From: Narcine bancroftii
Taxonomy: Eukaryota
Direction of reading: 5' to 3'
NCBI RefSeq assembly: GCF_036971445.1
Contig: NC_091473.1
Span: 89,280,001-89,344,000 of the forward strand
Length of the DNA: 64,000 nucleotides
Positions 23,351 through 25,718 of this stretch are shown here, in pieces. Every line of letters starts with the position of its first letter. Position 1 is the first letter of the stretch. Both the position numbers and the translations under genes were made by a program. The notes under the pieces were generated by a model. That model did no database searches, had not been told where the DNA came from, and saw only the letters and a list, made by a program, of their open reading frames with translations.

Positions 23351-24654
23351 TTTTACATATTTCATATTGGTTTGTTGTTTCTTTTGACCCTGTGTCCCAA
23401 TCAGACGGTTTTCTTGCACGAAGCCATGAATGAGGCGTACTTTCTCCGAATGAACACAAATAAAAACGACATCATCATTTCACAACCTTGCCATAGTCTT
23501 TTCTATTTTTCCACTGATATCACTCAATTTATTGTTCACCCCACCTCATCACATCCTCTATGACTTAATATCCTTTTTCTTCCACCATGGTGCAACGTTT
23601 GAGAATGTATTAGTTGTTGAGTACTGTTGTACAATAACTATAGGCAATGGAAAGGGGAATTAAACGTTAGTCCTGTTTTGAGCTCTATTTATTTCCTGCC
23701 AACATTTAAGCAGTAAAATCGATCCAAATAAACACCATGTTTCAAAGCAAATAAATAGCTAACTTCACACTGCCTTTCAGAACAATAGCCTCATCAGTAA
23801 TGTTGTTGTCATTCATACTCTGGGGGGAAAAAAATGTATTTTACCCTGAGGGTCTTTTGGACTAGGTTTTTTCTCGAGTTTGAGAGAGACCTTTTTAATT
23901 TATTTCATTATTGCCTTTAGGGAGATAACCACAATTATCGTGGGATTGGATTTTTTCAATAAATCTGTCCTTGAGGAGCAGGGATTCTGTCTGCTGAGAG
24001 TCTTCCCCTCTGTGGTACATCTGCATTTTGTTAAATTGACAGTGCAGCTACTAACCAATGTTAAATGTTAGCTTCTATTATATTATTCATTTGGATTTTT
24101 ACAAAATGTTTAGTTGTAGATCAGTAACTCTAGTGTTTGAAGCAATTTCCAGATATGCTATTCAGAAAATAATTTCACCTTTAACATTTTTTTTTGGTGG
24201 TGTGGTATGTGTTTTCATGTTGAGAAGGAGGGAGGAGTAAGGATATTCCGTCAGTATATTCTAGACACAAGCAGGGAGGAGAGAGCAGCAGGGAAAGCCT
24301 GGATGAGAAACATATGCTAATTGGTTGGCTTGGAGAGCATATTCCGCACTATGGTCTGAGCATAATGAGTCTTTGCTTTTTTTTCTGTCTAAACTGTCAC
24401 CATTGACTGGTTCACTGTCACTGTTGCTACCAGGTGTGTGTGATGGTGATTGCTGGTGACCAGTTGATTAACTCTTTCTTCCTGAAACTTGATTTCCTCT
24501 GCTTTCTTGAAAGTAGAGAAAATTCTCACTCCTCTGATCATTGACTGTGCCATTTAGATTCTTGAGGCTGAGAAATGGCTCCTCTGTGGCTAGCTATGCT
24601 GTCAAAGAGCAGCCCTATCTACCGAGATTCCCTCTTCTCCTTCTCCTTGGGTAG

Positions 24655-24792
24655 TGCCCATAACTTGGCGAGGGACATGAGCTTGCTTCGCAAATGGATG
24701 GAGAAGGAGCGAAGTCTGCTACTTGGACAGCTGAGATATTTAACTCAGCAGCAACAGATCCTGGCTACAAGCATGAAGGAGGAACTTGACAA
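24655..24792 (+). CDS. PDE4DIP: Putative alternative myomegalin exon X, 138 nt (SAHNLARDMSLLRKWMEKERSLLLGQLRYLTQQQQILATSMKEELDK); may instead be a first exon starting at ATG 24575
   Basis: Pyrimidine tract cctcttctccttctcctt plus gggtag| acceptor, and AA|gtaaga donor. Phase 2/2 fits exactly between exons B and C. Peptide is coiled-coil-like and the context is non-repetitive. Confidence 0.65.
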
Positions 24793-25718
24793 GTAAGAGT
24801 GGCATTCAAAGTATATCTTAATGAATAAAACAGTAAAGGAGCCCAGTTGTTCTTCAGTTATTCTTTCTTTTAAAACATCATCAATAAGCATGTATTTAAA
24901 CCATTAGGAACTGTGCAGGTTTGTTAGCATTTGTAAACTTGAGAAGCTGGATGAGAGGAAACTATTAATGTGAAATTTGGCTAACAGAATTGTGTTGAAA
25001 ATTCATTGTTTGCTAGAAAGAATGTTGTGAGTTTAATATAAACTTGGATTCTGAGGACCATTGTGGAATTTGTGGATCTCTTTGTTGTAGTTGCAATACA
25101 ATAATGACATATAAAGTAGGTTGTTTGAGTATCCCAGGTCACACAGTTAGCATTCCTACAGAATGTACAATATATACATTAAATATAATGAGTTCATGTC
25201 TCCAAGTTATTACAATTTACATGTAGCTTAATATAACTTTTATTTACAAGTTTGTTCCTTGTACAGTTTGATAAACTCACAAATACAGAACAATTCAGTT
25301 TCTAAATATAGATTGATATTTTAAGTATAGATAATGTCTATAATTGATATCTACTGAATTTACAGGGCAAGAGTTTTCAATTTCCAGTTTAAGGCACGTA
25401 TACATATATATGTTTATATGCTGTATACATAATGTATTTGTGTTCTTTGCCAAATGTATTGTTTATCACATTTCAAGTATGTGCAGTACAATTCTATGTA
25501 TAAATTAATGGAATTTATTATGTACAGAGTACCTTGGAGCAATACATACAAGTTACTGCAGCATAAGGCGATCACTTTCTATAGATTTATGCAACCTCTG
25601 TTTACAGTTTCAAGTACTCTCTATAAATGCAGACTATTACAATGCCTGTACATGTTCATCCTGTCATTCCTGATACAGTTAATACCTGCACTATGTACAC
25701 AAGTTAGTGCAACTATTT

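What the first reader, a model, noticed from the sequence alone, without database searches (positions are those of the whole stretch)
24575..24796. Hidden dual-use exon inside the intron that splits the Olduvai-precursor doublet of PDE4DIP
Seen: in non-repetitive sequence there is an ORF ending at a strong phase-2 donor (GAC AA|gtaaga) that splices in frame to exon C (AA+A = Lys, then LNKELEEK). It can be entered two ways. (1) An internal acceptor (long pyrimidine tract plus gggtag| at 24654) gives a symmetric 138-nt, 46-codon cassette. (2) ATG 24575, which has an in-frame TGA two codons upstream, or ATG near 24677, gives an alternative first exon for a C-terminal-only myomegalin. The peptide looks like an amphipathic coiled coil. 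From memory, the canonical human protein reads directly EPLALR|LSRELQEK with no such segment. Inference: a lineage-specific or tissue-specific isoform. I cannot exclude that it is already annotated in other fishes.
Basis: partly seen in the sequence, partly recalled or inferred. Interest (0 to 1): 0.7.

Follow-up and report, generated by a model that had tools for sequence, protein, structure and literature searches.

The report
Ancient internal start exon of myomegalin
A short coding exon hidden in a 25-kb intron of the myomegalin gene (PDE4DIP) is shared with bony fishes, where databases already list it as the start of a short protein form, and a copy sits in the same intron of the sister gene CDK5RAP2; it likely starts a shortened scaffold protein that keeps the centrosome/Golgi-anchoring end but lacks the microtubule-nucleating end.

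Summary
The exon is real. ATG 24575 opens 72 codons ending at a phase-2 GTAAGA donor, in frame with exon C. It is not lineage-specific. Teleost myomegalin isoforms, mostly 680-880 aa and including zebrafish isoforms 15-17, begin with the same peptide (19-23 of the first 25 residues identical) and run into exon C. An in-frame stop precedes the ATG, so this conserved start can only be used as a first exon. The product lacks CM1 and keeps CM2. New here: a paralogous exon with the same donor phase lies in the same intron of CDK5RAP2 in this genome, so it likely predates the gene duplication. The internal acceptor is also kept in that paralogue, with 9 of 10 codons identical against 62 of 152 elsewhere. 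Cassette use is therefore plausible in cartilaginous fishes, unproven, and not possible in frame in teleosts. One RNA contig joins exon A directly to exon C. Ten paper searches found no description of the isoform. The scan noted a different first exon shared by these two genes on other genomes, not this one.

The parts
4386..4437 (+). Exon A of PDE4DIP (52 nt, ends in phase 2), upstream border of the intron
   Evidence: its 3' end is the loose end of RNA contig 1 of run X1 at exon C
24200..24574 (+). Inferred internal promoter and 5' UTR; start site not mapped. Only weak motif matches (GGGAGG at 24230 and 24274, reverse CCAAT at 24320, E-boxes at 24311, 24431, 24461); no TATA, MEF2 or CArG match
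   Evidence: motif scan, no control; existence inferred from first-exon use
24569..24571 (+). In-frame TGA two codons before the ATG; no phase-2 AG lies between it and the ATG
24575..24649 (+). Codons 1-25: conserved N-terminal peptide, reachable only from the ATG
   Evidence: 16-23 of 25 residues identical in 32 distinct homologous peptides; no Pfam family; low model confidence at residues 1-20
24628..24654 (+). 21-nt pyrimidine run plus GGGTAG: candidate internal acceptor that overlaps codons 18-27
   Evidence: same AG and near-identical tract in the CDK5RAP2 paralogue
24655..24792 (+). 138-nt coiled-coil part of the exon; the putative symmetric cassette; 18 codons longer than in teleosts
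   Evidence: helix predicted to run on into exon C in the zebrafish form
24793..24798 (+). Phase-2 splice donor GTAAGA
   Evidence: same phase and position in the paralogue; 17 of 17 short genomic-type ORFs end in K or Q at the exon end
29496..29749 (+). Exon C, first exon shared with the long isoforms
   Evidence: covered by contigs of X1, X2 and X3, joint 29749/32529
32529..62773 (+). Downstream shared exons (32529-32660, 33972-34148, 37857-38099, ~39375, ~43537, ~45082, ~49911, ~54340, ~56189, ~61900, ~62585); the CM2-coding end continues about 0.3-1.6 kb beyond the window
   Evidence: RNA joints; tblastn

Best explanation
This is a coding exon, shared with bony fishes and with the sister gene CDK5RAP2, that likely serves as an alternative first exon: an inferred internal promoter would start a transcript that is translated from ATG 24575 and spliced to exon C, giving a short myomegalin without the CM1 nucleation motif but with the CM2 end. 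Shown: the frame, the splice phase, conservation of the peptide, annotation as a start exon in teleosts, the paralogous exon, and CM2 similarity in the zebrafish form. Predicted: residues ~26-73 extend the exon-C helix and so replace the upstream coiled coil, while residues 1-25 are poorly structured alone and likely act as a short docking or targeting motif. Inferred: the protein is a nucleation-incompetent adaptor. [quoted passage not shown] Odds: first exon real about 0.93; adaptor role about 0.6; additional cassette use in cartilaginous fishes about 0.35.
For: 15 of 56 candidates hit the peptide at E 4e-9 to 3e-7; 14 are 689-869 aa, and all 13 that carry a name are teleost proteins, 10 of them named myomegalin or PDE4D-interacting protein. 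Zebrafish isoforms 15, 16 and 17 start at this Met. 26 of 29 longer proteins with the motif enter exon C at residue 56; only 1 of 46 carries upstream PDE4DIP exons, and it is a partial prediction that appears to read through intron. The in-frame TGA makes codons 1-9 unreachable by splicing, and the only good acceptor lies after codon 26. Paralogue: match at E 6.6e-7 on contig C1, between the homologues of exons A and C, same donor phase. That gene scores higher against CDK5RAP2 than the window's gene does (79 vs 64 bits, 31 vs 20 bits), and only two genes carry the family exon. Residues 653-707 of the zebrafish form match fly centrosomin (E 1.7e-4) and 553-709 match CDK5RAP2. Model: one helix 14-76 across the junction, pLDDT 85-93 at 31-70, about 51 at 1-20. 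A C-terminal myomegalin fragment localises to centrosome and Golgi (PMC3575658, passages); the PDE4D-binding region is C-terminal (PMC13678657, section 2 part 1).
Against: No transcript of the exon was seen in this species. The one RNA contig whose upstream partner is shown joins exon A directly to exon C (X1). No start site was mapped and upstream motifs are weak. The paralogue has a stop at the position of Trp5, so it cannot make the same N-terminus and would start at the codon-6 or codon-8 Met. No named tetrapod or cartilaginous-fish protein was found in four searches. No partner or localisation of the isoform was tested.
Confidence: 0.75

Rival explanations
1. Hybrid first/internal exon: besides first-exon use, the AG at 24654 is used to insert 46 residues of coiled coil into full-length myomegalin, at least in cartilaginous fishes. 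This adds to the best explanation and does not replace it.
For: The acceptor scores above the six other acceptors of this gene that were measured (18 of 20 pyrimidines against 9-15). The paralogue has a 20-nt pyrimidine run and CAG at the same codon position. Codons of identical residues 16-27 are identical in 9 of 10 cases, against 62 of 152 in eight other paralogous exon pairs and 6 of 18 in the rest of this exon (P 1.6e-4 by degeneracy class, Fisher 0.005, best background window 7 of 10). Position 27 is Ser or Arg, the two residues an AGN codon can give, in 9 of 9 non-teleost-type peptides.
Against: No 4437-24655 junction was seen; X1 joins exon A to exon C at depth 1588. Position 27 is Glu in 23 of 23 teleost-type peptides, which excludes a phase-2 AG there. 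The codon test rests on two sequences of one genome, and the wider stretch was chosen after I had seen the alignment. Eight of the nine Ser/Arg peptides look like one clade and their DNA was not seen. A silencer, a protein-binding site or codon preference could explain the constraint. Proteins over 2000 aa were not searched.
Confidence: 0.35
2. The short isoform's main role lies in the new N-terminal peptide, which sends the C-terminal half to a place other than centrosome or Golgi (for example a sperm, cilium or sarcomere structure) as a local PDE4D/cAMP anchor.
For: Residues 1-25 are far better conserved than the coil. Myomegalin's EB-type N-terminus targets the Golgi independently of CM2 (PMC3575658, passages). 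A 2.4-kb rat testis transcript is still unmapped (PMC13678657); a 725-aa frame needs about 2.2 kb.
Against: No known domain or solved structure matches the peptide. No link to testis was tested, and no mammalian copy of the exon was found.
Confidence: 0.3
3. Relic or non-functional in this species: the exon is kept from an ancestor but no longer expressed.
For: No transcript was seen here. The paralogue has lost its first five codons to a stop.
Against: Frame, Kozak context and donor are intact, 23 of 25 residues match teleosts, and an unnamed 73-aa homologue is 78% identical and has the same length.
Confidence: 0.05

Closest known systems
Teleost short myomegalin isoforms in RefSeq/UniRef (zebrafish isoforms 15-17; XP_030289747.1, XP_049910330.1, XP_077076922.1, XP_051951659.1)
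   Same: Same start peptide, same position before exon C, same downstream exons.
   Different: The exon here codes 73 instead of 55 residues and keeps a phase-2 AG after the pyrimidine run, which teleosts cannot have.
Human myomegalin forms made from alternative promoters: CM-MMG, EB-MMG, MMG8/SMYLE (PMC3575658, passages; PMC13678657, section 2 part 1; PMC3308168, passages)
   Same: Alternative first exons swap the N-terminus and remove CM1.
   Different: All five forms in the review's table start at or near the gene's 5' end or are unmapped; MMG8/SMYLE lacks the C-terminus. This exon gives the reverse: only the C-terminal part, with CM2. It resembles the artificial fragment CM-MMG_C.
Rat testis 2.4-kb myomegalin transcript (as described in review PMC13678657; original paper not seen)
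   Same: Short transcript of about the size that a 700-residue frame needs.
   Different: Its 5' end is unmapped; no mammalian copy of this exon was found. A lead only.
Hybrid first/internal exons (PMC11797052, abstract; PMC13478751, passages)
   Same: One exon with a promoter upstream and an internal 3' splice site.
   Different: Here the acceptor would lie inside the coding part, 80 nt after the ATG, and its pyrimidine tract would double as conserved codons. Dual use is not shown.

Membership tests
Alternative coding first exon of PDE4DIP | ATG-initiated open frame ending at a donor in phase with the next shared exon | tested here: met
Alternative coding first exon of PDE4DIP | Conserved coding sequence that upstream splicing cannot reach | tested here: met
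   in-frame TGA, no phase-2 AG before codon 12, only good acceptor after codon 26; conservation of codons 1-25
Alternative coding first exon of PDE4DIP | Orthologous proteins begin with this exon and continue into exon C | tested here: met
   26 of 29 longer proteins enter exon C at residue 56; zebrafish isoforms 15-17
Alternative coding first exon of PDE4DIP | Transcript and junction in this species | tested here: inconclusive
   three runs of one study, kept as contigs; none laid on the exon, which the tool says is no proof of absence
Alternative coding first exon of PDE4DIP | Mapped transcription start (CAGE, 5' RACE) | not testable with these tools
   only contigs available
Hybrid first/internal exon | Acceptor-like sequence inside the exon, in phase with the upstream donor | tested here: met
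   same in the paralogue
Hybrid first/internal exon | Junction reads from the upstream exon into the acceptor | tested here: inconclusive
   only the skipping join was seen, in X1
Hybrid first/internal exon | Acceptor phase conserved in teleosts | tested here: not met
   Glu at position 27 in 23 of 23 peptides; judged from protein, DNA not seen
CM2-containing centrosomin-family adaptor | C-terminal CM2 region present | tested here: met
   zebrafish form matches centrosomin and CDK5RAP2 C-termini; matching exons in and just beyond the window
CM2-containing centrosomin-family adaptor | CM1 motif absent | tested here: met
   CM1 exon lies about 197 kb upstream of this exon; no Cnn_1N hit in two short isoforms
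CM2-containing centrosomin-family adaptor | Binds AKAP9/pericentrin or PDE4D; localises to centrosome or Golgi | not testable with these tools
   inferred from PMC3575658 and PMC13678657
Olduvai (DUF1220) precursor doublet as the flanking exons | Exons A and C match the Olduvai profile | tested here: inconclusive
   no Pfam hit on exon C; exon A was not scanned; PMC3429928 (passages) says non-mammalian precursors fall below formal classification
CDK5RAP2 orthologue (the C1 gene) | Closer to CDK5RAP2 than the PDE4DIP copy is; second of two family genes; own CM1 | tested here: met
   no tree or synteny test was run

The most novel reading that the evidence does not exclude
The ancestral vertebrate centrosomin-family gene had a hybrid first/internal exon whose acceptor pyrimidine tract doubles as the code for a conserved docking peptide. 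Both PDE4DIP and CDK5RAP2 inherited it, and it gives each gene an unstudied CM1-less, CM2-only form that tunes microtubule nucleation and local cAMP. It survives in tetrapods (the unnamed 53-residue group) and explains the unmapped short testis transcript of rat myomegalin.
Probability: 0.15. Interest if true: 0.7.

Novelty: new member of a known kind. Interest (0 to 1): 0.42.

Why it matters
Myomegalin and CDK5RAP2 set where microtubules are nucleated and where PDE4D limits cAMP, and the reported forms cannot all be mapped to transcripts (PMC13678657). A C-terminal-only form kept for over 400 million years (date from general knowledge), with a near-invariant 25-residue start of no known family, is a defined and testable unit. 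Zebrafish knockouts aimed at early exons (exons 4 and 13 in PMC8958919) would likely leave it intact, which matters for reading mild phenotypes. The copy in CDK5RAP2 dates the design to before the duplication. The mechanism class, an internal promoter, is ordinary, and teleost databases already hold the isoform, which limits the surprise.

Tried and rejected
RNA: no RNA holder of the stretch was listed. Three same-species runs of one study laid nothing on 23900-25560 at 95% likeness; this is no evidence on expression. The depth of 0.4-1 near the exon at 90% likeness vanished at 95% and was taken as noise. DNA of other species: two metagenome scans found 144 and 599 pattern matches, none confirmed, so no dN/dS across species and no teleost acceptor DNA. 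The ESM Atlas gave no result for either query. Complex prediction of the N-terminal 78 residues with the CM2 region of the zebrafish form: no verdict, median 0.21 against a mark of 0.34. P0030 (fungal repeat protein, E 3e-9 over 9 stretches) is a chance hit and was left out. P0050 does not match the start motif and is not among the 46 counted. Two weak own-genome matches (E 3.3 and 7.2) and a third weak CM1 hit on C5 were not followed. The PDB gave only weak coiled-coil hits for the exon profile and none to the three CDK5RAP2 chains. ATG 24677 was rejected as main start. A Polo-box S-S-P site (consensus recalled) was considered and dropped: Ser12 is kept in only 22 of 32 peptides. The paralogue-acceptor row had a wrong offset; those values were read instead. 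Invariance of positions 2-5, 8 and 10 is built into the search pattern and is not counted as evidence. The review PMC9618167 was not held.

Full report
Observation. The window holds the 3' part of PDE4DIP in a 3.3-Gb genome; tblastn with teleost myomegalin finds its exons in order. Between exon A (4386-4437) and exon C (29496-29749) lies a 25,058-nt intron. ATG 24575 has an in-frame TGA two codons upstream and opens 72 codons plus AA before GTAAGA; AA joins the first A of exon C to give Lys, in frame. The AG at 24653-54 follows a 21-nt pyrimidine run and would give a 138-nt phase 2-2 cassette. It is the only ATG-to-GTRAG frame of 70 codons or more among 32 such donors in the intron.

Orthologues. 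A search with the 73-residue peptide returned 15 proteins of 56 candidates, with 47-56% identity. Fourteen are 689-869 aa, and the named ones are teleost. A search from the zebrafish peptide returned 17 of 21 candidates, the named ones again teleost. Zebrafish isoforms 15, 16 and 17 start at the same Met; names without an X usually mark curated RefSeq records (recalled). Four unnamed Logan proteins of 689-725 aa sit on contigs of 3.4-6.2 kb, which suggests spliced RNA (inference). Of 46 proteins with the motif, 29 are longer than the exon, and 26 of these enter exon C at residue 56. The other 17 stop at the exon end on K or Q, as a phase-2 donor followed by a stop would give. One of them is 73 aa long and 78% identical to the window's peptide, likely another cartilaginous fish. 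Eight form a 53-aa group of unknown clade. The first 25 residues are 19-23 of 25 identical in teleost-type peptides; the next 28 positions only 7-11 (ungapped). No named tetrapod protein appeared, but the collection returned few vertebrate species, so this is weak.

Why a first exon. The conserved residues lie between an in-frame stop and the internal acceptor. The only other in-frame AGs, at 24609 and 24612, lie after codon 11, and the one measured is poor (9 of 20 pyrimidines). Selection on residues 1-25 therefore needs translation from the ATG. Only 1 of 46 proteins carries upstream PDE4DIP exons, a partial prediction with apparent intron read-through.

Paralogue. A search of the own genome found a second match on contig C1 (45% identity over residues 5-71, E 6.6e-7). 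It lies between homologues of exon A (L023 4588-4531, minus strand, ending in phase 2) and exon C (from L022 9985), and ends at a phase-2 GTAAGT donor at the same codon. The gene has its own CM1 exon, and only two genes carry the family's exon Z. Two of its exons score higher against CDK5RAP2 chains in the PDB than the window's equivalents (79 vs 64 and 31 vs 20 bits). I take it as CDK5RAP2. Three consecutive synonymous changes at codons 9-11 point to protein-level selection. It keeps an ATG at the Met1 position but has TAA at the Trp5 position, so it would start at the codon-6 or codon-8 Met, or be used as a cassette. Both paralogues share the long exon, so the 55- and 53-residue forms are likely derived. 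The exon profile does not match the three CDK5RAP2 chains in the PDB.

The internal acceptor. The paralogue has a 20-nt pyrimidine run and CAG at the same place. At identical residues 16-27, 9 of 10 codons are identical, against 62 of 152 in eight other exon pairs and 6 of 18 in the rest of the exon (P 1.6e-4; Fisher 0.005). For codons 19-27 alone it is 7 of 8 (P 0.001). So the DNA is constrained beyond the protein, exactly where a 3' splice site would be. Position 27 is Ser or Arg in 9 of 9 non-teleost-type peptides and Glu in 23 of 23 teleost-type ones. Against use: contig 1 of run X1 (depth 1588) joins exon A directly to exon C, and contigs of X2 and X3 also run 0.8 and 1.9 kb upstream of exon C without lying on the exon. 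The test uses two sequences only, and a silencer or other element could explain it. I give cassette use about 0.35, limited to non-teleosts.

Product. The zebrafish form matches the CDK5RAP2 C-terminus and fly centrosomin at residues 653-707; CM1 lies about 197 kb upstream. The model (17 sequences, mean pLDDT 58, pTM 0.27) shows one helix from 14 to 76 across the exon junction, confident at 31-70 and weak at 1-20. The exon thus likely supplies a coil in register with exon C plus a short motif. The motif matches no Pfam family. A C-terminal myomegalin fragment localises to centrosome and Golgi, and CM1 binds the gamma-tubulin ring complex (PMC3575658, passages). The PDE4D-binding region is C-terminal (PMC13678657, passages and section 2 part 1). 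From this I infer a nucleation-incompetent adaptor that competes with the long forms and carries PDE4D. None of this was tested on the isoform.

What is known. Human PDE4DIP uses several tissue-specific first exons (PMC3308168, passages; PMC3575658). The 2026 review's table lists five forms, none described as C-terminal only, and calls a 2.4-kb rat testis transcript unmapped. Hybrid first/internal exons are common in human (PMC11797052, abstract; PMC13478751, passages). Ten searches gave no listing that describes this isoform, and five peptide motifs occur in no paper of the library; most hits were seen as listings only, and subscription papers and supplements were not searched. PMC8958919 (passages) targeted zebrafish exons 4 and 13. 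Two unreviewed notes of this scan describe another first exon shared by fish CDK5RAP2 and PDE4DIP on other genomes; I did not test them. Look-ups by sequence and place found no note on this exon.

Verdict. A real, old alternative first exon, already annotated in teleost databases, not found in the papers searched. New here are the cartilaginous-fish long form, the copy in CDK5RAP2 and the nucleotide-level constraint on the internal acceptor. New member of a known kind; interest 0.42.

Noticed in passing
G000:C1:206290746-206290964, minus strand (L023 746-964; L011 1496-1714): Paralogous exon in CDK5RAP2 with an ATG at the Met1 position followed after four codons by TAA; a second, weaker phase-2 AG lies at the codon-6/7 position. 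It is only about 760 nt from its exon C, against 4.7 kb in PDE4DIP.
   Followed up: yes
P0037, P0043-P0048, P0053 (unnamed Logan contigs of 4.4-10 kb): A 53-residue version of the exon from one unnamed group, with Trp at position 21 and Arg at 27; it shares the short donor position with teleosts. Could be a non-teleost bony vertebrate, possibly a tetrapod.
   Followed up: partly
P0022 (Epinephelus moara) and P0024 (Xyrauchen texanus): In these species 'myomegalin-like isoform X1' already starts at this exon: either a teleost duplicate that kept only the short unit, or a split annotation.
   Followed up: no
P0034, P0042; also P0001, P0011, P0017, P0018: Some teleost peptides have Ile in place of Met1 or an open, unconserved upstream extension with an earlier Met, so N-terminal extension is tolerated.
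   Followed up: no
window 24734-24792: The 18 codons that teleosts lack equal one heptad plus one hendecad, a length a coiled coil can absorb (arithmetic only).
   Followed up: no
window 24058-24236: A second ATG-to-GTAAG phase-2 frame of 59 codons just upstream; T-rich and not searched. Its donor at 24237 could splice within a 5' UTR.
   Followed up: no
window 29496-38099: RNA contigs confirm introns 29749/32529, 32660/33972 and 34148/37857; depth of these exons differs about 190-fold between X1 and X2.
   Followed up: partly
window 25576-28045 and 30516-31997: High-copy repeats, heavily covered by divergent contigs in all three runs; several reverse-transcriptase-like frames lie in the introns (likeness recalled).
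   Followed up: no
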